Part shown: piece after piece, positions 3,101 to 64,000 of the stretch
How the letters are laid out: every line of letters starts with the position of its first letter
Position numbering within the stretch: position 1 is the stretch's first letter
Notes under the pieces: generated by a model
Databases searched by the model: none
Told to the model about the DNA's origin: nothing
The model's input: the letters and a program-made list of their open reading frames with translations, nothing else
Translations under genes and position numbers: made by a program
Source of the DNA: a virus
Reading direction: 5' to 3' (one strand)
IMG/VR virus record: IMGVR_UViG_3300008459_000008
Span: 42,240-106,239 of that record
DNA: 64,000 bases

Positions 3101-4853
3101 TTCCACATCTCCAAATCCTACGACCGCAAACACAACCACAAGTAATGGGACTGGAACAGGTACATTTACAAGTAGTCTAACTGGACTATCTCCTTCTACT
3201 ACATATTATGTAAAGGCATACGCAATTAACACCACTGGTACGGGTTATGGTAATGAATTATCATTTACTACGACATCTTCTGGATCTTTTCCATCACTAA
3301 CAACTACTGCAGCAAGTGGTATATCTCAAACTACTGCATCTTCTGGTGGAAATGTGACTGCTGATGGTGGTTCAACGGTCACCGCAAGAGGAATTTGTTA
3401 CGCAACCACACAAAATCCAACCCTATCAAATACGGTAGTAAATAGTGGTTCGGGTACTGGTGTTTTTACAAGTTCATTATCTGGATTGACACCAAACACT
3501 ACTTATTATATCAGAGCCTTTGCTACAAATTCAAATGGAACAAATTTCGGAACACAAGTTTCTTTTACGACTTTATCCTCAATTACATTTCCCATTTTAA
3601 CAACAAATACAGTGACATCCATAACTTCAACATCAGCAACTTCTGGTGGTAATATTACAAGTGATGGTGGTGCTACTGTCACTGCAAGGGGGGTTTGTTA
3701 TGCCACAACACAAAATCCAACGACCTCAAATACAGTGATTACAAGTGGTTCAGGTACTGGAACATTTTCAGTGTCGATCACTGGTCTTACAAGTGGTGTA
3801 ACCTATTATGTTAGATCTTATGCTACTAATTCAGCGGGCACAAATTATGGAACCCAACAATCTTTTACAACTTTGGTCTTTCCTTCATTATCTACTACTT
3901 CCGCGACTAGTGTCACTTCTACAACTGCGACAACCGGAGGTAATGTAACTTCAGATGGTGGGGCTACAGTAACCGCTAGAGGTGTGTGTTATGCAACAAC
4001 ACAAACCCCAACCCTTTCAAATTCATTCACATCAAATGGTACCGGTGTGGGATCATTTACCAGTAGTTTAACTGGTCTAACTCAGAATACTACTTACTAT
4101 GTAAGAGCTTATGCGACTAATTCAGTTGGTACAAATTATGGTAGTCAAATCAGTTTTACGACTACTACTGGTGAGACTTTACCTACTGTAACGACTACCG
4201 CAGTGACTTCTGTGACTTCGAACAGTGCCTCTTCAGGTGGAAATGTTACAAGTTCTGGTTCACAATCTGTAACATCTAGAGGAGTAGTCTGGTCGACCTC
4301 AATAGATCCTACAGTGTCATTGACTACAAAAACTGTCAATGGTAGTGGAACAGGTACTTTCACTAGTTCAATAACATCACTATCAGCTTCTACTACTTAT
4401 TATGTAAGAGCTTATGCTACGAGTTCTGTTGGTACTGGTTATGGTAATAATGTTCAATTCACAACATCATCATCACCTACAGCATCTTGCACAGTGACTA
4501 CTTTTGCACCATACCAATTAAATGGTTTTTGGAGATTTAAATGGAATTTGAATTCGAATTGTAACAGCTACACTGTCACTGTAAGTAGATATAATTATAC
4601 GAGTTCTTCTGTCCAACCTCCAGTTGGAGCAACACCTGTTGCTACAGGTGCTAGATTGACCAACTATGTTCCCACGACCAATGAAATTTCTCAAGGATTT
4701 ATTGACCAACAAATGAATCCCCAACCTGCTACCACTGGATATTGGTACAGTTTTGATGTAAAATGTAATGCAACTTCTTGTAGTGGTTCAAACACTACTA
4801 GATCACCTTACTTCTATGTAGGTACTACTCCAGCATCGACAATCGGTAAATAA
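117..4853 (+). CDS. Secreted reprolysin/M12B-like zinc metalloprotease with 10 FN3-like repeats
   Basis: Signal peptide (MKNILLYLSCLLITSNLFS-Q); zinc motif HEMGHNCGSSH; Met-turn IMSYC; ten ~100-aa repeats with YYVRAYATN cores; Cys-containing C-terminal domain. Confidence 0.85.
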   Translation: MKNILLYLSCLLITSNLFSQVKMDVWNKNPNTSRTIAKINPSKLPVSFESTLPDGSTEIYDKWNVSDIEVETSTKKKYTFKPNAYKARKNLSILTYTENGWEGMYQSPDGSSYSMNPTSVTKDDTRPQGTLGGCETMIPANITINKIPERTPQTSNLLTNTQYYDPAITINKNLTVYAEVTNDLHVSLGNNLTTTQNWVTNLFLAVSNIYAQEGLTVTLNKIYVWQSVDPYGYQTTTTSSCILGGGSLYGSAFCTGFTDNIKNNLPVNPNNTTTNVTSHFKHLLHGRGSLGGIAWLGGNSDGYNPDTWNVVGTNLSTAVSGFTSTTIPSQATTGYNWPVYVTAHEMGHNCGSSHTQFCRWRNDQGAYLGRLDSCYKGENYNSTGYCTQETVEPCPANCTQTTYLTTKPNNNGTIMSYCHLNGSVNLSSRFGKYPRFAMRSSVDRTPYILNPISTLPEVASANVTSITSFTATCGGNVTFGGGSGVTARGVCWAPYPTEPTTANSKTLDGTGTGSFTSVMTNLTPAVTLYVRAYATNSAGTSYGGLRLFTPGPPVPPVLTTVPINTVGQTTAKSGGTISSGGGGTITRKGVVWSIFPIPDNTTINSEIGNTNDGTGTANFTSSITGLTLGVTYYVRAYAENEYGVGWGSELTFTTSTATTPSLTTNSVTTFTNTTATMGGNVTASGGASVSRRGVCYATTQNPTIANTVVNIGTGTGTFSQSVTGLSQGVTYYVRAFAENQAGLNYGTQVSFKTLTIPSVSTTAATNLATTSFTTGGNVTSAGGGSLTVTARGVCYSTSTSPSLTNGTVLSIGTGTGTFTTNITALTQGVTYYVRAYATNTYGTAYGSQITVKTLTVPTVTTTASTALSKTGFTTGGNVTSAGGGTLSVTERGIVYSTTVQDPTTSNTKVLAATPTGTGSYTISLTGLTPGTIYYVRAYAINSVGTGYGSRITVTTPSEPVLSTTSITSISTTTASSGGTITSSSGSTVTARGVCYSTSPNPTTANTTTSNGTGTGTFTSSLTGLSPSTTYYVKAYAINTTGTGYGNELSFTTTSSGSFPSLTTTAASGISQTTASSGGNVTADGGSTVTARGICYATTQNPTLSNTVVNSGSGTGVFTSSLSGLTPNTTYYIRAFATNSNGTNFGTQVSFTTLSSITFPILTTNTVTSITSTSATSGGNITSDGGATVTARGVCYATTQNPTTSNTVITSGSGTGTFSVSITGLTSGVTYYVRSYATNSAGTNYGTQQSFTTLVFPSLSTTSATSVTSTTATTGGNVTSDGGATVTARGVCYATTQTPTLSNSFTSNGTGVGSFTSSLTGLTQNTTYYVRAYATNSVGTNYGSQISFTTTTGETLPTVTTTAVTSVTSNSASSGGNVTSSGSQSVTSRGVVWSTSIDPTVSLTTKTVNGSGTGTFTSSITSLSASTTYYVRAYATSSVGTGYGNNVQFTTSSSPTASCTVTTFAPYQLNGFWRFKWNLNSNCNSYTVTVSRYNYTSSSVQPPVGATPVATGARLTNYVPTTNEISQGFIDQQMNPQPATTGYWYSFDVKCNATSCSGSNTTRSPYFYVGTTPASTIGK

Positions 4854-12136: not shown

Positions 12137-15100
12137 ATGAAAAAGTTTCTTCTACTAATTCTATTGACACTAACTTCCGTTCTGTCCTTTGGGCAGACGG
12201 AAGTTGATATTTGGAAAAAATCCAACAAAAAAATATTTTCTCAAAGAAAATTTACATTTCCAAAAACATTTGTTTCCAAATCACCATCAGGTAAACAATT
12301 GACTTACCAACGTGTGGAACATCCATATATCAAGATAGAAACATCTAGTGGTAAGAAATGGACAAAGAAACCAATTATTTATCAATCTACTTCAGATTTT
12401 GGTGTAATAACATATGACGGTAAAAATTGGAGTGGTATACATACAGAGGATGGATACAATGTAAGTAACTTGACGAAAGAAAAGGTTACTAATGTCAAAA
12501 TGGATGCTGAAAAATTCAGTTTTGGTGAAGGAGATGTTTTACTCGCGCCCACAAAATCAAATAAAAAGATAGGAAGGTCAATCCAAAACAATCCAAATTT
12601 TTATGATCCTTACATCAGAATTAATAAAACTTGTGGAGTTTATGTGGAAGTAACAAATGATTTATATAAATTTTGGGGTTCAGATACTGGTAGAGTAACA
12701 CAGTATGTTACAACTATACTAACAAATGTTATAGCTCTATATGACAGAGAGGGTATAAATGTCACATTGAATAAAATTTTTGTTTGGGACACACCTGATC
12801 CTTATGGAAACCCATTCGATAATACACAGTATCTAAATCAATTTACAGATAACATCAACAAAAATATACCAACTACACCAGAATCTCATTTTAAACACTT
12901 ATTACACAATAAGAATTTGGGTGGTATAGCTTGGATAAATGGTGAATCAGATGGATACATCACATCTGCAAATCTTGATCCATACTATACCTGTGCGGTC
13001 ACAGGAATTGGTTCAAATATAGTAGTTAATTCTAATGTCACTTATTCTTGGCCAGTAATGTGTTTCACACATGAAATGGGACACAATCTTGGTTCAAAAC
13101 ATACTCATTGGTGTGGATGGAAAAATGAATCCAATCAAGCCATAGGTAGAATTGACAGTTGTTACAGAGGAGAAAGCACAGATGGGCCAGATAATTGCAC
13201 GTCATCTACTTATACAGTAGTTAAATCAAACAACAGAGGCTCTGTAATGAGTTATTGTCATCTGAATGGTGCCATAAGTTTCACAACTGGATTTGGTAGA
13301 TTACCAAGATATTCAATAAGATCTAATCTAAATGATGCACCAGAGGTGCCATTTGACACACCACAAGTTCCAACAGTAACTATTGATACTGGTACTCAAA
13401 AAACAGCTACTTCTGTTTTAATGACTGGAAATATTGTAATGACTGGAGAAACTATAATTCAAGAAAGAGGTTTCGTGTGGACAAATTCACAAATCATAAT
13501 GCCTACATTGAATTTGACAACTAAAATTGCGGTCGGCTCAGGTAGTGGAACATTTCAATCACAAATTACAACATTAACTGCAGGAGGACGTTTTTGGTTT
13601 AGGGCATATGCGAAAAATGCTACTGGAGTTTACTATAGTGATACAGTAAGGGTACAATTGGTCTCAACGTCTGTACCAAGTCTGACGACAAATCCTGTAA
13701 CTCTAATTACAAATATATCGGCTCAAACTGGTGGCACATACATATCGATTGGTAATATTTCAATTCAAGAAAGAGGTATAGTGTACAGCACTTCCAATCA
13801 ACTTCCTACCGTAGATGACACTAAAGTGATCACACCATCACCAAATAACACAAACTTCGTTCAGAATTTGACGGGTCTAACTCCCAACACCACTTATTAC
13901 ATAAGGGCTTTTGCTAGAAATAGTCCGTCAATTTTTTCTTACGGAAATGTACAAACTTTTCAAACTTTACCAAATGAGTCGGTATCTTTTGGAGTACCTT
14001 TAGCTACCGTCAATAGTAGTACACAAATAACCCCTAGTGTTTTTATCACATCTACTGGTAATGGTGGGGTCATATCTGAAAGAGGTTTCTACATAGGAAC
14101 TACACCAAATCCTGAAAATAACATACTTAATAAAAGAGTTGCGGTTTTGGGACAAGCCACTACTATGGCATTAGCTATAATAAATCTAACACCCAATACA
14201 CTTTATTATATCAAAGGTTTTGCGACCACTCAATTTGGTACTTTTTATACACCCGAATTCACATCCACTACACTTAGGAGTATACTAGTGATGGATGAAG
14301 TTAGTGGAATAGAAGCTACTAAAGCTACGTTCAAATATACTATTGGTCCAACTACATCTATCATACCATCATCAGGTGTTTTGTTATCAACCAACATAAC
14401 ACCAACTAGAGCAAACAGTCAGTTCTTTTTTCAATCGACATATGTTGGACAAGGACAAGGCACAATTGTTGGACAAGACCTACTTCCAAATACGACTTAC
14501 TATGCTAGAGGGGTAATACCATTTACTTCTGGTGATTTCTTTTCAACTAATATACTACAGTTTCAAACTACGGGAGTTGTTGGTACTCCATCGGTTAGTA
14601 CTTTGGGATCACCCACAAAAACAAAAAATTCGATTGTAGTTAGAGGTGAAGTTGTGTCAACTGGATCATCACCTGTATTTAACAGGGGAATTTGTTATTC
14701 AACCGCACCAAATCCTACTATAAATAATTCAGTTATTGTATCAGGTCAGGGGATTGGTCAATATATTGTAACTATAAACAATTTAGTACCTAGTACAATA
14801 TATTATATTAGAGCGTATGCTACCAACAAGTCCGGCACTTCTTATGGTTCAGAAATTAATATTTCAACCAGTGGTGATATCCCAACAATCATAACAAACT
14901 CAATCAACAACATTTCATTAACCACTGCTAATGGAGGTGGTGAAATAACTCTTTCGGGTGGACGTGTTGTTACATCTAGGGGTGTAATTTGGTCAACCAA
15001 TCCCAATCCAACAATAAATTTGTCTACAAAAACAGTAGATGGTAGCGGAATTGGCATATTCACAAGTGCAATCACTGGATTGGTACAGAATACGAAATAT

Positions 15101-17174: not shown

Positions 17175-18024
17175 ACTGACAATATTTTATTAATTTTTCG
17201 ATACCGAAAGTCATCATTTCTACTGCTGAATTCAAAAACTGAAAAGATACATCATCTATCTTTTGAAACTTCTCCAACTCAGACTTAATTTCTTCTTGAG
17301 TTATTGATGTTTTTCCAATCAATGTAAAAGGGATAATTTTGAGAAAAGAAAGATTAGGTTTTCTTTTTTGAATATTTTCACGAATGACATATTCGGTAAA
17401 AGCTTTTTGAATACCTATACTTGGAGGTATCAAGTAAAATATCCTATCATTTGTTAACTCGAACCTAAATGAAGATGTACGTGTGTCGAAATATTGTATC
17501 AACTTTTCATTGATGTCATATTTTTTGAAGTGATTACGTACTAATTCTATAGAATTTTCTTCACCACAAGAACACTTCGCATTAGTAGATAATATTGTCC
17601 CCTTCTGGAAAGTTAATTCTCTTATTAAAAAAATTAAGTAATACCTATCTGGATCCTTGATTTCAAGATATGAACTGATTGTACCATCAATATGTTTCAT
17701 TCGAACACAAGATGAAAGCATGTCATTCATTTTTTCTATAATATCATAATAATTATTATCATCAACCATAGAATATGATTGAATTTCTTTTACTTGAGCA
17801 GATCTGACTTGAATTATTGTTCCTTTCGGGTAAAAATAACCACACGGAAATTCTTGTACATCAAATGAAAAATAGTGTAAATCACTTGTTTTATTTGTGT
17901 TGAAATTATTTGTATATTGTGGGGATGGTGGGATATCTAGTTTTTCAACTTTTATATTGTTGTCAAGATTTTCTAAATGAATTCTAAGATAATCCTCTTC
18001 AGTCAAAACTTTTGAGTCAGACAT
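17080..18024 (-). CDS. Baseplate hub subunit/assembly chaperone (T4 gp26-like)
   Basis: DRYYLIFLIRELTF motif followed by CSCG and a C-terminal CQCG; adjacent to tail tube. Confidence 0.65.
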   Translation of the reverse strand: MSDSKVLTEEDYLRIHLENLDNNIKVEKLDIPPSPQYTNNFNTNKTSDLHYFSFDVQEFPCGYFYPKGTIIQVRSAQVKEIQSYSMVDDNNYYDIIEKMNDMLSSCVRMKHIDGTISSYLEIKDPDRYYLIFLIRELTFQKGTILSTNAKCSCGEENSIELVRNHFKKYDINEKLIQYFDTRTSSFRFELTNDRIFYLIPPSIGIQKAFTEYVIRENIQKRKPNLSFLKIIPFTLIGKTSITQEEIKSELEKFQKIDDVSFQFLNSAVEMMTFGIEKLIKYCQCGLEIHTPMSFPNGPSAIFVVHNAFDQFIKK

Positions 18025-60451: not shown

Positions 60452-60916
60452 TTAATTTTTTTGATTAAATGGGTCATTCTTTAGACTATCAACTATTTTT
60501 CTGATCCTTTCTTTCATGGTATTGCCATATTCTTTAGGTAATTTTTTTTGAAAAATAATTTCATATTCGTGGCAAAGTAGATCCCTTTCCTTTTGATTTA
60601 GTTGTTGAGCCACTTCATCAAGTCTCAATTTATAGGATTCTCTTACAATTGTTGATGCTAAAAGATTAATAGATGGGGCACCAACAGTCCTCAAAGGTAT
60701 GTTGATAATACCATCATCGGATTTTGGGATGGTATCAGCAGAAATCAAAATTTTATCACAATAATCACTCACAAGCACGAAAGATGTAGCATCAGATTCT
60801 TTGATCAAATCAATCGCAGCTTGAATTTTCAAAGAAAACGTTTCATCGACTATAACTTTAAACTGAGCATTTGAGATATTTACTAGAAAGATAAAGGGTA
60901 GAAATAATTTTTTCAT
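60452..60916 (-). CDS. Secreted hypothetical protein
   Basis: Start moved to ATG 60916 (MKKLFLPFIFLVNISNA-Q). Confidence 0.6.
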   Translation of the reverse strand: MKKLFLPFIFLVNISNAQFKVIVDETFSLKIQAAIDLIKESDATSFVLVSDYCDKILISADTIPKSDDGIINIPLRTVGAPSINLLASTIVRESYKLRLDEVAQQLNQKERDLLCHEYEIIFQKKLPKEYGNTMKERIRKIVDSLKNDPFNQKN

Positions 60917-60949
60917 AATAAGTTTATGTATAAATCTAGGATAAGTCCA

Positions 60950-60957
60950 CAAATGTA
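60950..60957 (-). promoter_or_regulatory. Bacteroidota sigma-A-type -7 element
   Basis: TACATTTG on the minus strand, with TTTG upstream. Confidence 0.55.
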
Positions 60958-60992
60958 AAAATATTATTTTGATATACAAATAAATATCAAAA

Positions 60993-61154
60993 TTAATTAC
61001 AATGAAAAAGGTCACCATCGGTGACCTTTTTATCTTTTTTTCGACAATATTTCTTTTTTGAAACAACAACCCTCGTTGTGAAACGAGCATCATTACCCGT
61101 ATCCCTAATCAAAAGGTCTCGTTTTATTTTTTTGAAATTAATTGTCTGTTTCAT
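60993..61154 (-). CDS. ArfA-like alternative ribosome-rescue peptide (53 aa)
   Basis: MKQTINFKKIKRDLLIRDTGNDARFTTRVVVSKKKYCRKKDKKVTDGDLFHCN; D..F..RV...KK.Y.RK.K core; terminator inside the CDS. Confidence 0.6.
   Translation of the reverse strand: MKQTINFKKIKRDLLIRDTGNDARFTTRVVVSKKKYCRKKDKKVTDGDLFHCN
61005..61031 (-). terminator. Intrinsic terminator inside the ArfA-like CDS
   Basis: AAAAAGGTCACC-GAT-GGTGACCTTTTT; the U-tract ends 9 nt before the TAA. Confidence 0.75.
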
Positions 61155-61323
61155 TTTTTGATTTGTTAATTTTCTGCCCCACTTTTTCGAAAGAATCCTC
61201 AAGAATGTAGAGGCACAACATAGTTGTGACCATATCAGTAACACCAAGAAGATAGTACATAAAAGCCCCAATCAGCCATACAAAGTGACCGTAAATTTTA
61301 ATAAAGTTTAGTATATTTTTCAT
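61138..61323 (-). CDS. Small membrane protein
   Basis: Two hydrophobic segments; overlaps the ArfA-like start by 17 nt. Confidence 0.55.
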   Translation of the reverse strand: MKNILNFIKIYGHFVWLIGAFMYYLLGVTDMVTTMLCLYILEDSFEKVGQKINKSKNETDN

Positions 61324-61327
61324 AATA

Positions 61328-61335
61328 CAAATATA
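61328..61335 (-). promoter_or_regulatory. Bacteroidota sigma-A-type -7 element
   Basis: TATATTTG on the minus strand, with TTTG ~20 nt upstream; 4 nt before ATG 61323. Confidence 0.65.
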
Positions 61336-61365
61336 CGACTTTTTTTGATAATGGTTACAAAAAAT

Positions 61366-61839
61366 TTAATATTTCCATTCAATTTTTTGAAGAGACTTAA
61401 ATGGTTTTTTAGTAACTCTTTCTAAAATGGCTATTCCATAACAACCTTTGACTACTCTTTTCTCTTCGTCGAGAACTTGTTTTGTTTCAATCATTAAAAA
61501 GTAATTTTCAGTCCTTTTCATAGGCTGATATCTTAACATATAATCATCCTTTGTTATTAGTTTTTTTGTTAAAACGTGTCTATTTAAAGTGATCAAAGAA
61601 ACTTTCAAGGTATCTCCTAAATCTTTTGATTGAAATAAAAACGCTAATTTGGTTTTGTAACTAACATCGTTTAATTTGACGTAAGTCGTTTGACCAGATT
61701 TTACTTGAAAAACTACTTTGTCATATAAAACATAAGGGATTATATCAATACTATCCAATTTATTAGATAGTAAATCAAAACACTGTGAGTATAAGGTGTT
61801 TGTAATTAAAAATAATGTTAAAAATAAAAAAACCCTCAT
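61366..61839 (-). CDS. Secreted hypothetical protein
   Basis: Signal peptide MRVFLFLTLFLITNTLYS-QC. Confidence 0.65.
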   Translation of the reverse strand: MRVFLFLTLFLITNTLYSQCFDLLSNKLDSIDIIPYVLYDKVVFQVKSGQTTYVKLNDVSYKTKLAFLFQSKDLGDTLKVSLITLNRHVLTKKLITKDDYMLRYQPMKRTENYFLMIETKQVLDEEKRVVKGCYGIAILERVTKKPFKSLQKIEWKY

Positions 61840-61864
61840 AATCTATTTATTAAATTATGAGGGT
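61826..61864 (-). terminator. Terminator after the tRNA; its 3' arm contains the ATG of 61366..61839
   Basis: Minus strand ACCCTCATAAT-TTAATAAATAG-ATTATGAGGGT-TTTTTT. Confidence 0.7.
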
Positions 61865-61878
61865 GGGATTTTGGTGTG

Positions 61879-61984
61879 TGGGCCCTGTTGGATTCGAACC
61901 AACTACCTGCGGTTTATTTCTTCCAAGTGAATAAATACTATTCAAAAATGAGACCGCTGCTCTGACCGATTGAGCTAAGAGCCC
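61879..61984 (-). tRNA. tRNA(CAU), probably Ile2, with a 32-nt insert/intron in the anticodon loop
   Basis: GGGCTCT/AGGGCCC acceptor stem with A73; D-arm AGCTCAATCGGTCAGAGC; anticodon stem GCGGT/ACCGC; CT-CAT then 32 extra nt (61916-61947) then AA; T-arm GTTGG-TTCGAAT-CCAAC; no adjacent encoded CCA. Confidence 0.85.
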
Positions 61985-62020
61985 TTTATTTTGTTATATT
62001 TAAAATTAAATGATTGTTTC

Positions 62021-62059
62021 GAACTTGCGTTTTTAATACATAAAAATAAATGCGAGTTC
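62021..62059 (+). promoter_or_regulatory. Hairpin occluding the translation start region of the GIY-YIG gene, with a late-promoter-like loop
   Basis: GAACTTGCGTTT...AAATGCGAGTTC ends 1 nt before the ATG; the loop contains TAATACATA. Confidence 0.6.
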
Positions 62060-62060
62060 A

Positions 62061-62702
62061 ATGTTTTATACTGTTTACAAAATTACAAACAAAATAAATA
62101 ATAAAATTTATATTGGTGTTCATAAAACAAAGAATTTGGATGATAATTATATGGGATCCGGTAATAAAATTAAATTAGCAATAAAAAAATACGGAGTTGA
62201 AAATTTTGTCAAAGAATATCTCGCAATATTTGATAATCCTGAAGATATGTTTGATATGGAATCCAAAATTGTGAACGAAGAATTTATTTCTAATAAAGAA
62301 ACTTATAATATGACTATTGGTGGAAATGGATCCTGGGATTATGTAAATAATAACTTATCGATGGAAGAAAAAATAAATCACGGCAAGTGGTTGAGTGATA
62401 ATTATGCATCAAAGGGAGGTTCTTGGAAGAATTATGAAAAAAGAATTAAGGTTTGGAGTGTAGTTCCACTCGAGATTAGGCAGGAAAATGCCAGAAAAAT
62501 GGGTTACAAATTTGGTGGACAAAACAAATTCGAAAAAATAGAAATAGACAAAAGATTGGGATTGATTAAGGATATTGATCTGACAGAATTTGGTTGGGTC
62601 AAAAAGGTTGCAGATATTCTTCAAATATCACATACACAAGCCAAAAGATTTATAAAGAAGTATTATAAGGGGGAATATTATCAACGCAAAAGTCCAAGTT
62701 GA
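62061..62702 (+). CDS. Free-standing GIY-YIG homing endonuclease (Seg-like)
   Basis: YTVYKITNKINNKIYIGVH...YMGSG...AIKKYG.ENF...E...YNM..GG; C-terminal HTH-like segment; inserted antisense between two tRNA genes. Confidence 0.85.
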   Translation: MFYTVYKITNKINNKIYIGVHKTKNLDDNYMGSGNKIKLAIKKYGVENFVKEYLAIFDNPEDMFDMESKIVNEEFISNKETYNMTIGGNGSWDYVNNNLSMEEKINHGKWLSDNYASKGGSWKNYEKRIKVWSVVPLEIRQENARKMGYKFGGQNKFEKIEIDKRLGLIKDIDLTEFGWVKKVADILQISHTQAKRFIKKYYKGEYYQRKSPS

Positions 62703-62709
62703 TATTGTG

Positions 62710-62785
62710 TCGGCAAGATGGGGATCGAACCCATATGCACCTATTACCCTTTCGACACTTTATAAGAGTGAGGGGATACTCGCCG
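62710..62785 (-). tRNA. Atypical tRNA-like RNA with UAU anticodon and no canonical D-arm
   Basis: Acceptor CGGCGAG/CTTGCCG with A73; U8-A9; anticodon hairpin CACT-CTTATAA-AGTG; T-arm ATGGG-TTCGATC-CCCAT; only 6 nt in place of the D-arm and a 21-nt 3' connector. Confidence 0.7.
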
Positions 62786-62800
62786 AAGTGATTTGTTATA

Positions 62801-62808
62801 CAAAGATA
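62801..62808 (-). promoter_or_regulatory. Bacteroidota sigma-A-type -7 element driving the tRNA-like gene
   Basis: TATCTTTG on the minus strand, with TTTG ~20 nt upstream; 15 nt before the RNA. Confidence 0.7.
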
Positions 62809-62837
62809 ATACAAAAATGTTTAGTTACAAAGAAAAA

Positions 62838-63587
62838 TTAACTTTTTCTCCTACCAAAACTATCTACACTCCCATCGTGTTTAAAAGAACCATCCATATT
62901 ATACATAGTTCCAAAGTGATAACCCTTATCATCAAATAGATCCCATGATACATCATTTCCAATTTTTCTATATCCATACATTAGAGTTCTGTACTCATTT
63001 GTTTTTTTACCAACTAGCAAAGCCCTTTTGTTTCTGGAATAATCATTAATTTCGTATTTTAGTAAGTCATAGTTATTACTCTCGTTTATAGGACTTGAGT
63101 TAACCCAATCAGTAAAACCATCCCAACCATCTATAAACCAGTTAATACTTTTTAAAAAAATATCATTATCTTTCATTGGATATCTTACCTCAAATGCTTT
63201 CCTTGGAGTATTACCACTTACTGGAACCCCATCAGATTTTATGAAAAAGTAATCATCTTCATACTTTGTTACTGTTACATCAAATCTCATTTCGTTGGGA
63301 TATTCCAATTTCCAATTTACCCTACACATTATATCTTTTGGGTCTAATCTACCAAGTGAGTAAACACTCCTATATTTTAATTCAACACCAGTAAGTTCCG
63401 GTTTAAAATATTTGAGTAATAATCTTTCTATTTTTGGGTAATCACTTTCAGTAAGTGCTGATGGACCAGGATATTTAGCCAAATCATCTAATAGGTTCCA
63501 AGTATCACCTGGATCAAACTCTTGAAATGACTGACCTTCAAGGTAATCTTCAATATGAGATTCGTTAAATCTTTTCAAGTATTTCAT
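62838..63587 (-). CDS. Hypothetical protein with capsid-targeting-like N-terminus
   Basis: MKYLKRFNES plus internal INES; TAATATATAG upstream. Confidence 0.65.
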   Translation of the reverse strand: MKYLKRFNESHIEDYLEGQSFQEFDPGDTWNLLDDLAKYPGPSALTESDYPKIERLLLKYFKPELTGVELKYRSVYSLGRLDPKDIMCRVNWKLEYPNEMRFDVTVTKYEDDYFFIKSDGVPVSGNTPRKAFEVRYPMKDNDIFLKSINWFIDGWDGFTDWVNSSPINESNNYDLLKYEINDYSRNKRALLVGKKTNEYRTLMYGYRKIGNDVSWDLFDDKGYHFGTMYNMDGSFKHDGSVDSFGRRKS

Positions 63588-63599
63588 AGATACTATATA

Positions 63600-63821
63600 T
63601 TAAGTATCTAAAATAGTATCTATTTTCTCATCCCTAACCACAGATTGAGCTAAAACAGCACCATCTTCAAGTAAAGTATTTAAGTATAACCTTGAATCGT
63701 GTTCACCATTTATAAACCACCTTTGACAACCCATAACACCCGTTTCAGTAAGGACTTCATATTCCTTACCTTGAATCAAAGAATGATTATACCTTTTATT
63801 ACTCACACAAACTACTTTCAT
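63600..63821 (-). CDS. Small SH3-like barrel protein
   Basis: MKVVCV...LIQGKEYEV..., ending VRDEKIDTIL. Confidence 0.55.
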   Translation of the reverse strand: MKVVCVSNKRYNHSLIQGKEYEVLTETGVMGCQRWFINGEHDSRLYLNTLLEDGAVLAQSVVRDEKIDTILDT

Positions 63822-64000
63822 ATAGTAATTGATTTAAGATTTCTTCTCTACGTTCATAAAGTGGTTTAAACAACTTCATAGGATAATGTCCAATTCTTTT
63901 TTCATCATGGAAAACCAAACACCATTTATCATTGTCATAAGAGTCTAATTCATATACTTTACCAATAGTAAAAGGTGTTACTCTGTCTTCATCTAATGGA
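63799..64000 (-). CDS. Small SH3-like barrel protein (5' end outside the window)
   Basis: Open frame ...PFTIGKVYELDSY...HYPMKLFKPLYERREEILNQLLYESSLCE*. Confidence 0.55.
   Translation of the reverse strand, partial: PLDEDRVTPFTIGKVYELDSYDNDKWCLVFHDEKRIGHYPMKLFKPLYERREEILNQLLYESSLCE

What the first reader, a model, noticed from the sequence alone, without database searches (positions are those of the whole stretch)
61879..61984. tRNA(CAU) interrupted at the anticodon by a 32-nt non-self-splicing insert
Seen: an intact cloverleaf with TTTTGAATAGTATTTATTCACTTGGAAGAAAT between CAT and AA. Removing it restores CT-CAT-AA. An AT repeat at the junctions places it at 34/35, 35/36 or 36/37; the canonical 37/38 site would leave U37. 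The insert folds (TGAATA/TATTCA; ATTTTT/AGAAAT) and is far too short for a group I intron. Known: bacteria lack the archaeal/eukaryal splicing endonuclease, and tRNA introns have been noted in some huge phages. Inference: an unknown nuclease and ligase route matures it, or the insert shields the RNA from anticodon nucleases or the gene from the neighbouring endonuclease.
Basis: partly seen in the sequence, partly recalled or inferred. Interest (0 to 1): 0.75.

Follow-up and report, generated by a model that had tools for sequence, protein, structure and literature searches.

The report
Phage tRNA gene split by 32-base insert
A large freshwater phage carries an otherwise perfect isoleucine-type tRNA gene with 32 extra bases in its anticodon loop, next to a selfish DNA-cutting-enzyme gene; close relatives lack both, so the insert is recent and is either damage that silences the tRNA or a rare intron removed by an unknown route.

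Summary
A tRNA(CAU) gene on the minus strand (61879-61984; Rfam 57.9 bits; ARAGORN with introns) has 32 extra bases in its anticodon loop. Removing them restores CU-CAU-AA.

The insert is not a group I intron: it is 32 nt, has no terminal G and gives no Rfam hit. It has no archaeal bulge-helix-bulge motif and matches no known self-cleaving ribozyme.

Three syntenic or orthologous relatives carry the same gene uninterrupted. Two of them have it 3 nt after a normal tRNA-Ile(UAU). In the window, the whole tRNA pair has been replaced by a cassette: an odd UAU tRNA-like RNA, a SegB-like GIY-YIG homing endonuclease gene, and the interrupted CAU gene. In other phages, group I introns occupy the same 36/37 site in this tRNA family.

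No second copy of the insert was found, and no expression data could be obtained.

- **Best reading (about 0.4):** a young by-product of homing-endonuclease traffic that leaves the gene unable to decode.
- **Main rival (about 0.3):** a real mini-intron cut and religated by proteins. Rnl1/Rnl2-type RNA ligases occur in the clade.

This scan has noted similar short inserts in phage tRNA genes on other DNA.

The parts
61948..61984 (-). 5' exon of tRNA(CAU): acceptor 5' strand, D arm, anticodon stem 5' strand, loop CUCAU
   Evidence: Rfam RF00005 57.9 bits; ARAGORN -i. BLAST matches to uninterrupted family members stop exactly at 61948.
61916..61947 (-). 32-nt insert (placement 36/37; it can be shifted 1 or 2 nt because of the AU repeat)
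   Evidence: ARAGORN intron call. No other copy in the contig, and no match in any fetched locus or in INPHARED phages. Folds pair A35-U36 of the anticodon with the last two insert bases.
61879..61915 (-). 3' exon: AA, anticodon stem 3' strand, variable loop, T arm, acceptor 3' strand, A73; no encoded CCA
   Evidence: The 3' end is 87-88% identical to the uninterrupted orthologues in L086 and L012.
61891..61899 (+). GATTCGAAC, a match to the T6 SegB cleavage motif RAWTSGAAC, in the T-loop coding part of the gene
   Evidence: motif taken from PMC13096335
61832..61864 (-). Terminator-like hairpin plus T run just after the tRNA; it overlaps the start codon of the 157-aa gene
62061..62702 (+). Free-standing GIY-YIG (Seg-like) homing endonuclease gene, on the opposite strand to the tRNA genes and lying between them
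   Evidence: Pfam GIY-YIG E 2.7e-4 (21.6 bits, cut-off 22.6) and SegE_GIY-YIG. blastn hits are annotated as Seg-like homing endonucleases. All 13 nearest IMG/VR homologues lie inside tRNA clusters. The gene is absent from syntenic relatives L086/L095/L087.
62710..62785 (-). UAU tRNA-like RNA at the place where relatives have a normal tRNA-Ile(UAU): acceptor stem, T arm and a hairpin with loop CUUAUAA, but no D arm
   Evidence: RF00005 26.3 bits, below the 29-bit cut-off. Fold z = -0.85. Comparison with L012 and L086 tRNA-Ile(UAU).
62801..62831 (-). Bacteroidota-type promoter (TTTG-N19-TATCTTTG) 15 nt upstream of the UAU-like RNA; probable promoter of the whole tRNA unit
   Evidence: pattern enriched: 10 against 3.7 expected. 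The region is conserved upstream of the tRNAs in L086 and L087.
61366..61839 (-). 157-aa gene that follows the tRNA(CAU) gene in three relatives; it marks the right edge of the replaced cassette
   Evidence: 52 homologues. Synteny in L086, L095 and L087. Nucleotide homology to L086 resumes at window 61878.

Best explanation
The 32 bases are a real, young, lineage-specific insertion in a phage tRNA gene of the tRNA-Ile2(CAU) type. The insertion belongs to a cassette built around a SegB-like GIY-YIG homing endonuclease gene. In the ancestral layout a host-type promoter drives tRNA-Ile(UAU), then tRNA(CAU) 3 nt later, then the 157-aa gene. In this phage everything from the first base of the first tRNA to the last base of the second has been exchanged, as expected for gene conversion around an endonuclease-induced break. 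The new version holds a D-armless UAU RNA, the endonuclease gene on the opposite strand, and the CAU gene with 32 extra bases at the site that group I introns use in this tRNA family. I take the insert to be a by-product of this endonuclease-driven break and repair traffic, joined at a 2-nt AT microhomology. The locus is probably still transcribed, and its ends can probably still be trimmed. With a 39-nt anticodon loop, however, the RNA cannot decode, so the gene is most likely a recently silenced tRNA gene. Shown: the insert, its site, the uninterrupted alleles in relatives, the cassette boundaries, and the endonuclease family's habit of living in tRNA clusters. Inferred: the origin by repair and the loss of decoding.
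For: Uninterrupted orthologues: L086 and L095 have flanks about 84% identical in DNA and carry tRNA-Ile(UAU), 3 nt, then tRNA(CAU) with loop CTCATAA. L087 has promoter, tRNA(CAU), then the 157-aa gene. G002/L012 has the same acceptor stem and T arm. Homology to L086 breaks exactly at window 62786 and 61878, the outer ends of the two tRNA genes. The GIY-YIG gene is absent from these relatives, and all 13 of its nearest IMG/VR homologues sit between tRNA genes. SegB cuts inside tRNA genes and drives microhomology-based rearrangements of tRNA loci (PMC13096335). The partner UAU gene in the same cassette is below the Rfam tRNA cut-off and is weakly structured. No second copy of the insert exists in the contig, in 109 fetched loci or in INPHARED, and no other interrupted allele with this anticodon stem exists in IMG/VR. 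ARAGORN -i gave 225, 212, 92 and 5 tRNA predictions on the fetched loci (many loci overlap). The only other short intron call (21 nt, L077) looked spurious on inspection. No splicing endonuclease, RtcB or RNase III gene was found in six clade fragments. The fold of the insert is only marginally better than shuffles (z = -1.82).
Against: The exons show no decay at all, so any inactivation must be very recent (roughly under 3% divergence by my estimate). The insert sits in the anticodon loop, about one tenth of the gene, at the classic intron site, and pairs with the anticodon as true tRNA introns do. ATA is a heavily used codon here (28 per 1000, 37% of Ile codons). The tRNA(CAU) gene upstream of the 157-aa gene is conserved down to 62% protein identity, so loss should cost something. 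The source of the 32 bases is unknown. A relative (G004) also has odd tRNA genes beside an HNH endonuclease gene, which could mean such variants are maintained rather than accidental.
Confidence: 0.4

Rival explanations
1. It is a true mini-intron removed by proteins. The pre-tRNA is cut on both sides of the insert at the base of the helix formed by the anticodon's A35-U36 and the insert's last bases. The nicked anticodon loop is then sealed by an RNA repair ligase (phage Rnl1/Rnl2 type, or host RtcB), giving a working tRNA-Ile2. The insert would travel together with the free-standing endonuclease gene, as in collaborative homing.
For: The exons are perfect and the restored loop CUCAUAA is canonical. 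The insert occupies the same 36/37 site as the group I introns of L076 (Rfam 55.9 bits) and L063 (with an HNH ORF) in the same tRNA family. The anticodon is paired with the insert. A cut after U36 and after the last insert base would leave a 2-nt 3' overhang and a nicked loop, the kind of substrate T4 Rnl1 repairs (my own knowledge). Rnl1 (PF09511, 80 bits) occurs in G001, and four PF09414 ligase-like genes occur in G004, two of them next to its tRNA cluster. There is high ATA demand. A host-type promoter and a terminator frame the unit. Lak megaphages provide a published precedent of conserved, unexplained tRNA introns (PMC6784885).
Against: No nuclease candidate was found. No conservation or covariation is available because no second example was found. 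Relatives without an insert have the same ligases, so the ligases are not specific evidence. The helix is too short and too interrupted for a normal RNase III site. No such pathway has been demonstrated in bacteria.
Confidence: 0.3
2. The RNA is made and kept unspliced and serves another purpose. It could be a tRNA-shaped processing signal (RNase P and RNase Z cuts) that frees the downstream 157-aa gene's mRNA, or a decoy that binds tRNA-targeting host nucleases or modification enzymes without being consumed.
For: The acceptor stem, T arm and D arm, which are what RNase P and RNase Z recognise (my own knowledge), are intact. The gene lies 40 nt upstream of the 157-aa gene in a conserved promoter-tRNA-gene unit. 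Phage tRNAs are known to counter tRNA-cleaving defences (PMC13096335).
Against: This does not explain why the anticodon stem and a precisely restorable loop are kept. Uninterrupted tRNAs in relatives would serve equally well as processing signals. There is no direct evidence.
Confidence: 0.1
3. It is the stump of a group I intron, or of a larger endonuclease cassette, that once sat at 36/37 and lost its middle by deletion.
For: Group I introns do occupy this exact site in the same tRNA family in other phages. The 5' exon ends in U, as group I splicing requires.
Against: With any of the three possible boundaries the insert ends in U or A, not the universal terminal G. Its ends show no similarity to the ends of the L063 or L076 introns. 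No Rfam intron hit appears even at E up to 10.
Confidence: 0.05
4. It is an assembly artefact of the metagenomic contig.
For: tRNA clusters with endonuclease-driven variants are hard to assemble. Two artefactual duplicated tRNA pieces were seen in other public assemblies. Reads could not be inspected.
Against: The insert is unique sequence, not a repeat of neighbouring tRNA sequence. It is flanked by the two halves of one tRNA in perfect register. Assemblers do not normally invent 32 unique bases.
Confidence: 0.04

Closest known systems
'Enigmatic' introns in tRNA genes of Lak megaphages (Devoto et al. 2019, PMC6784885, Table S6)
   Same: Phage tRNA genes are interrupted in the anticodon loop by inserts that are neither recognised group I introns nor archaeal-type introns. 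The removal mechanism is unknown. They were found by running tRNA finders in intron mode.
   Different: Lak inserts are longer (for example 93 nt in tRNA-Tyr), some are tRNA-shaped, and they are identical across cohorts, so they are conserved. The insert here is 32 nt and no second copy was found. It sits beside a homing endonuclease gene.
Group I introns in the anticodon loop of bacterial and phage tRNA-Ile(CAU), e.g. Azoarcus pre-tRNA-Ile (205-nt intron, PMC13168695) and the IMG/VR examples L076 and L063
   Same: Same tRNA type and same insertion point (CUCAU|AA, 36/37). The 5' exon ends in U. There is an association with homing endonucleases (HNH ORF inside the L063 intron).
   Different: 32 nt against about 190-790 nt. 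No catalytic core, no terminal G and no Rfam RF00028 match. It cannot self-splice.
T4/T6 SegB, a free-standing GIY-YIG homing endonuclease in the tRNA gene cluster (PMC2330249 as cited in PMC13096335)
   Same: A GIY-YIG gene lies between phage tRNA genes. It is present in some relatives and absent in others. The neighbouring tRNA genes are replaced together with it, as in co-conversion. The SegB motif RAWTSGAAC is present in the adjacent tRNA gene.
   Different: The catalytic domain is only distantly related (Pfam score just under the cut-off) and the C-terminal half is different. Cleavage specificity is untested. SegB loci are not reported to carry anticodon-loop inserts.
Archaeal and eukaryal protein-spliced tRNA introns (bulge-helix-bulge, EndA/Sen plus RtcB or Trl1)
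   Same: A short insert in the anticodon loop that pairs with the anticodon. Removal would need a nuclease and a ligase.
   Different: No bulge-helix-bulge geometry. The site is not 37/38. The host is bacterial (Bacteroidota-type promoters), and no EndA homologue was found in the phage fragments or in the bacterial controls.
Collaborative homing of an endonuclease-less intron with a neighbouring free-standing endonuclease (cyanophage psbA; recalled from memory, Zeng, Bonocora and Shub 2009)
   Same: An interruption at a conserved site, with a free-standing endonuclease gene right next to the interrupted gene.
   Different: There the interruption is a self-splicing group I intron, and the endonuclease is shown to cut the intron-less site. 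Here neither splicing nor the cleavage site is known.

Membership tests
tRNA (Rfam RF00005) | Cloverleaf with conserved D-loop and T-loop residues, scoring above the gathering threshold | tested here: met
   57.9 bits against 29, full-length model match with a local insertion in the anticodon loop. ARAGORN -i also calls it.
tRNA-Ile2(CAU), lysidine type (as opposed to elongator or initiator tRNA-Met) | Closer to annotated tRNA-Ile(CAU) than to tRNA-Met; acceptor pairs C4-G69 and U/C5-G68; no initiator features | tested here: inconclusive
   With the insert removed, 58/74 identical to E. coli tRNA-Ile(CAU) against 47/74 to metT/metU. A family member (L065) best matches annotated E. coli tRNA-Ile. 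G1-C72 is paired and the anticodon stem has no GGG/CCC run, so it is not an initiator. The comparison crosses phyla, so this is suggestive only.
tRNA-Ile2(CAU), lysidine type | C34 converted to lysidine by TilS | not testable with these tools
   No TilS (PF01171) in the six phage fragments; the host enzyme would be needed.
Group I intron | Catalytic core, total length of about 200 nt or more | tested here: not met
   32 nt. No RF00028 hit at the gathering threshold or at E up to 10. The positive control L076 scores 55.9 bits. The Azoarcus intron is 205 nt.
Group I intron | Intron ends in G (omega G) | tested here: not met
   The last base is U, A or A for the three equivalent placements.
Group I intron | 5' exon ends in U | tested here: met
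   The 36/37 placement ends the exon in U36.
Archaeal/eukaryal endonuclease-spliced tRNA intron | Bulge-helix-bulge: two 3-nt bulges separated by a 4-bp helix at the splice sites | tested here: not met
   For every splice pair that restores a 7-nt loop, at most 2 of the 4 central pairs can form. With the same script, 75 of 88 archaeal interrupted tRNA(CAU) genes gave 3 or 4.
Archaeal/eukaryal endonuclease-spliced tRNA intron | A splicing endonuclease (EndA/Sen, PF01974) is available | tested here: not met
   No hit in G000, G001, G002, G004 or G005. In the control genomes only the four archaea ring, none of the ten bacteria. The phage fragments are incomplete.
Small self-cleaving ribozymes (hammerhead, twister, pistol, hatchet) | Match to an Rfam ribozyme model | tested here: not met
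   No ribozyme family among the matches up to E = 10 in 60500-64000.
RNase III processing site | About one or more turns of near-continuous double helix around staggered cuts | tested here: not met
   Only 5-6 A-U/G-U pairs, then a junction with an 8-nt single-stranded stretch and a 5-bp hairpin. The 2-nt 3' overhang register fits, but it follows from the palindromic AU repeat.
SegB-like free-standing GIY-YIG homing endonuclease | GIY-YIG catalytic domain | tested here: inconclusive
   PF01541 at 21.6 bits against a 22.6 cut-off (E 2.7e-4), and PF19835 SegE_GIY-YIG at E 1.2e-3. DNA-level hits to genes annotated as Seg-like homing endonucleases.
SegB-like free-standing GIY-YIG homing endonuclease | Lives between tRNA genes and is present or absent among close relatives | tested here: met
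   13 of 13 nearest homologues lie in tRNA clusters. A 40% identical homologue lies in the G008 tRNA cluster. The gene is absent from L086, L095 and L087.
SegB-like free-standing GIY-YIG homing endonuclease | Cuts alleles that lack it, with co-conversion of flanking markers | not testable with these tools
   Only indirect evidence: both flanking tRNA genes differ from those of L086, while the outer flanks are about 84% identical.
Lak-type phage tRNA introns | The same insert is conserved in the same tRNA across independent genomes | tested here: inconclusive
   No second example in IMG/VR, in the fetched loci or in INPHARED.

The most novel reading that the evidence does not exclude
The 32-nt element is a working intron of a kind not described in bacteria or their viruses. 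It would be cut out by a protein nuclease at the anticodon-insert helix and resealed by an RNA-repair ligase. It would be inherited together with a free-standing GIY-YIG homing endonuclease because it occupies the same site in tRNA-Ile2 genes that mobile group I introns compete for.
Probability: 0.27. Interest if true: 0.85.

Novelty: new variant of a known kind. Interest (0 to 1): 0.45.

Why it matters
Bacteria and their viruses are thought to remove tRNA introns only by self-splicing. If this 32-nt insert is spliced, that would point to a protein-based tRNA splicing route in the bacterial world. It would also give RNA-repair ligases of large phages a routine job, and it would link mini-introns to homing-endonuclease traffic.

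If the insert is not spliced, the locus is still useful. It is a clean, dated example of how SegB-like endonuclease cassettes rewrite and damage phage tRNA genes that decode a heavily used codon (AUA). It also warns that 'introns' called by tRNA finders in phage genomes may be insertion scars.

Tried and rejected
- **IMG/VR searches that found nothing:**
  - Relatives of the 750-aa neighbour.
  - Relatives of the 157-aa protein alignment.
  - An interrupted allele with the same anticodon stem.
- **Lost scan:** my last IMG/VR scan had one N too many and could not match even the window, so it says nothing.
- **Bacterial and archaeal genomes:** Most hits were archaeal introns, and the 23 bacterial hits were duplicated T arms, assembly joins or coding sequence.
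- **Origin of the insert:** a search for a source inside the contig gave only chance matches of 14 nt or less.
- **Self-splicing and known motifs:** group I, bulge-helix-bulge and ribozyme readings were rejected (see the membership tests).
- **Own promoter for the CAU gene:** no Bacteroidota-type or sigma-70-type site lies upstream of it. The shared TATAACAAA string is not enriched in the window (5 against 3.3 expected).
- **Base rate of interrupted tRNAs:** the RF00005 survey of 25 phage records listed only the 150 best of 272 matches, all 71-91 nt. It could not show lower-scoring interrupted genes.
- **Eukaryotic or archaeal virus origin:** rejected. The contig has T4-like baseplate and tail genes, Bacteroidota-type promoters and no bulge-helix-bulge motif.

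Full report
**1. What is there**

On the minus strand at 61879-61984 lies a 106-nt sequence that Rfam scores as a tRNA at 57.9 bits (cut-off 29). The match covers the full model, with a local insertion in the anticodon loop. ARAGORN finds nothing in default mode. With introns allowed, it calls tRNA-Met(cat) with a 32-nt intron, and this is the only tRNA on the 106,239-bp contig.

All stems are paired and the universal residues are present. The insert occupies 61916-61947 if placed between positions 36 and 37. An AU repeat makes 34/35 and 35/36 equivalent. A 37/38 placement would leave U37.

With the insert removed, the loop is CUCAUAA. That is the loop of 36 of 40 uninterrupted members of the same tRNA family in IMG/VR.

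**2. What the genome is**

The contig is an IMG/VR virus record that CheckV rates about 42% complete. It has 32% G+C and carries T4-like baseplate wedge and tail genes. Its relatives are fragments of very large phages.

Bacteroidota-type promoters (TTTG-N18-21-TAnnTTTG) are enriched, with 10 found against 3.7 expected and no shuffle reaching 10. The host is therefore bacterial and probably a freshwater member of the Bacteroidota.

ATA is a major codon: 28.3 per 1000, or 37% of Ile codons.

With the insert removed, the tRNA is nearer to E. coli tRNA-Ile(CAU) (58/74) than to elongator tRNA-Met (47/74). A family member best matches annotated E. coli tRNA-Ile. It has no initiator features. It is therefore probably a lysidine-type AUA reader, although this is a cross-phylum inference.

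**3. What the insert is not**

- **Not a group I intron.** It is 32 nt, whereas the compact Azoarcus tRNA-Ile intron is 205 nt. It ends in U or A rather than G. It gives no Rfam intron or ribozyme match even at E = 10.
- **Not an archaeal-type intron.** No splice pair that restores a 7-nt loop can form more than 2 of the 4 central pairs of a bulge-helix-bulge. The same script gave 3 or 4 pairs for 75 of 88 archaeal interrupted tRNA(CAU) genes.
- **No matching enzyme.** No EndA-type endonuclease is found in six clade fragments or in any bacterial control genome.
- **Not a good RNase III site.** Only 5-6 weak pairs are followed by a junction.
- **Not a repeat.** It has no other copy in the contig, in the fetched loci or in INPHARED phages.

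**4. The comparative context, which is the main new result**

The downstream 157-aa gene has many homologues. Metagenome contigs L086 and L095 (85% protein identity, flanks about 84% identical in DNA) carry this layout: a conserved host-type promoter, a normal tRNA-Ile(UAU), 3 nt, an uninterrupted tRNA(CAU), an HTH/HNH-like ORF, and then the 157-aa gene. L087 (62%) has promoter, uninterrupted tRNA(CAU), then the 157-aa gene. Phage G002 has the same tandem pair, with an identical acceptor stem and T arm.

In the window, homology to L086 stops exactly at the first base of the first tRNA (62786) and resumes at the last base of the second (61878). Between these points lie:

- an odd UAU tRNA-like RNA with no D arm, at 26.3 bits, below the Rfam cut-off;
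- a GIY-YIG gene on the other strand;
- the interrupted CAU gene.

The 13 nearest homologues of the GIY-YIG domain all sit between tRNA genes. This is the arrangement known for T4/T6 SegB, which cuts inside tRNA genes and drives microhomology-based rearrangements there (PMC13096335). So the insert came in with, or was made by, a SegB-like homing cassette.

**5. The site**

Two of the 40 family members in IMG/VR are interrupted at the same point (CUCAU|AA). One, L076, carries a group I intron that Rfam recognises (55.9 bits). The other, L063, carries an intron of about 790 nt with an HNH_3 endonuclease ORF. Position 36/37 of tRNA-Ile2-type genes is thus a contested homing site in phages. The 32-nt insert sits on it, yet it shows no similarity to the ends of those introns.

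**6. Weighing the readings**

*For a silenced gene:*
- The insert is unique and lineage-specific.
- The partner tRNA in the cassette is also aberrant and weakly folded (z = -0.85).
- No bacterial route is known for removing such an insert.
- No nuclease candidate was found.
- The fold is only marginal (z = -1.82).
- SegB-type enzymes are known to scramble tRNA loci.

*For a working mini-intron:*
- The exons are flawless.
- The insert is in the anticodon loop at the classic intron site and pairs with the anticodon.
- AUA demand is high.
- The tRNA is a conserved part of the unit upstream of the 157-aa gene.
- Rnl1 and Rnl2-type ligases occur in the clade, two of them beside a tRNA cluster.
- Lak megaphages show that unexplained, conserved tRNA introns exist in phages.

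The ligases are also present in relatives without inserts, so they are permissive evidence only. The published SegB motif is still intact in the T-loop part of the gene, which gives no support to the idea that the insert shields the gene from its neighbour.

I put the silenced-gene reading at about 0.4, protein-mediated splicing at about 0.3, an unspliced functional RNA at about 0.1, an intron stump at about 0.05 and an artefact at about 0.04.

**7. Limits**

- Records very close to the window's genome are withheld by the search tools.
- One IMG/VR scan was wasted on a mistyped pattern.

The absence of a second example is therefore weak evidence.

**8. Relation to earlier notes of this scan**

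Other windows have yielded short hairpin inserts in phage tRNA anticodon loops. Others have yielded endonuclease cassettes that wreck or replace tRNA genes. Those notes are unchecked. I used them as leads: the Lak paper, the RNase III idea (which I tested and found a poor fit here) and the SegB comparison. The present case joins the two themes, because the insert and the endonuclease cassette occur together and are absent together in relatives.

Noticed in passing
window 62710-62785 (-): UAU tRNA-like RNA with a perfect acceptor stem, T arm and a 4-bp hairpin with loop CUUAUAA, but no D arm. The string AAUAGGUG, which is the D-loop of the tRNA-Ile(UAU) in relative L012, lies after the anticodon hairpin. 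RF00005 gives 26.3 bits and the fold z is -0.85. It replaces a normal tRNA-Ile(UAU) of relatives.
   Followed up: partly
G004 (IMGVR_UViG_3300020048_006428) 17553-17635 (-); L024 595-1413 (-): An 83-nt RNA with the same odd layout: acceptor stem and T arm, no D arm, a hairpin with loop CUGAUAA (Ile GAU), and a later AAUUGGUAAG segment. RF00005 gives 35.4 bits and ARAGORN does not call it. It lies directly downstream of a 272-aa ORF with an HNH motif. D-armless Ile-type tRNA-like genes beside homing endonuclease genes may be a recurring design in this phage clade.
   Followed up: partly
G004 17455-17544 (-): A 90-nt tRNA-Pro(UGG) with about 16 extra AU-rich bases in the variable region, next to the RNA above. 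This is another enlarged tRNA beside an endonuclease gene.
   Followed up: no
L086 2323-2880 (-): In the closest syntenic relative, a 185-aa ORF (HTH domain by Pfam, HNH-like motif by eye) sits between tRNA(CAU) and the 157-aa gene, and its 3' end overlaps the tRNA gene by 36 nt. The same locus is therefore occupied by a different putative homing endonuclease gene in different relatives.
   Followed up: partly
window 61832-61864 (-): A 14-pair hairpin followed by a T run lies just after the tRNA and contains the ATG of the 157-aa gene. It could act as a terminator or attenuator, or as a translational block. It is conserved in L086.
   Followed up: no
window 61990-61998 and 62792-62800 (-): The string TATAACAAA lies 5-6 nt upstream of both the CAU tRNA gene and the UAU-like RNA. 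It is not enriched in the window overall (5 against 3.3 expected). It may be a duplicated leader or processing element.
   Followed up: partly
whole window: The T6 SegB motif RAWTSGAAC occurs 16 times against 6.4 expected, and no shuffle reaches 16. Most copies are AAWTGGAAC, and they lie outside tRNA genes.
   Followed up: no
G005 13229-13315 (+); L161 (Tenacibaculum sp.) 3275-3336 (-): CAU tRNA-like genes with a long extra arm in the variable region: 87 nt in phage G005, and a similar layout in a Flavobacteriaceae genome. This is unusual for Met or Ile2 tRNAs.
   Followed up: no
L001 8640-8716, L002 7503-7579: Two unrelated, GC-richer IMG/VR contigs carry a tRNA(CAU) whose D arm and anticodon arm are identical over 36 nt to the exons here, but with a different acceptor stem and T arm. 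This suggests modular exchange, or a shared host-type Ile2 design.
   Followed up: no
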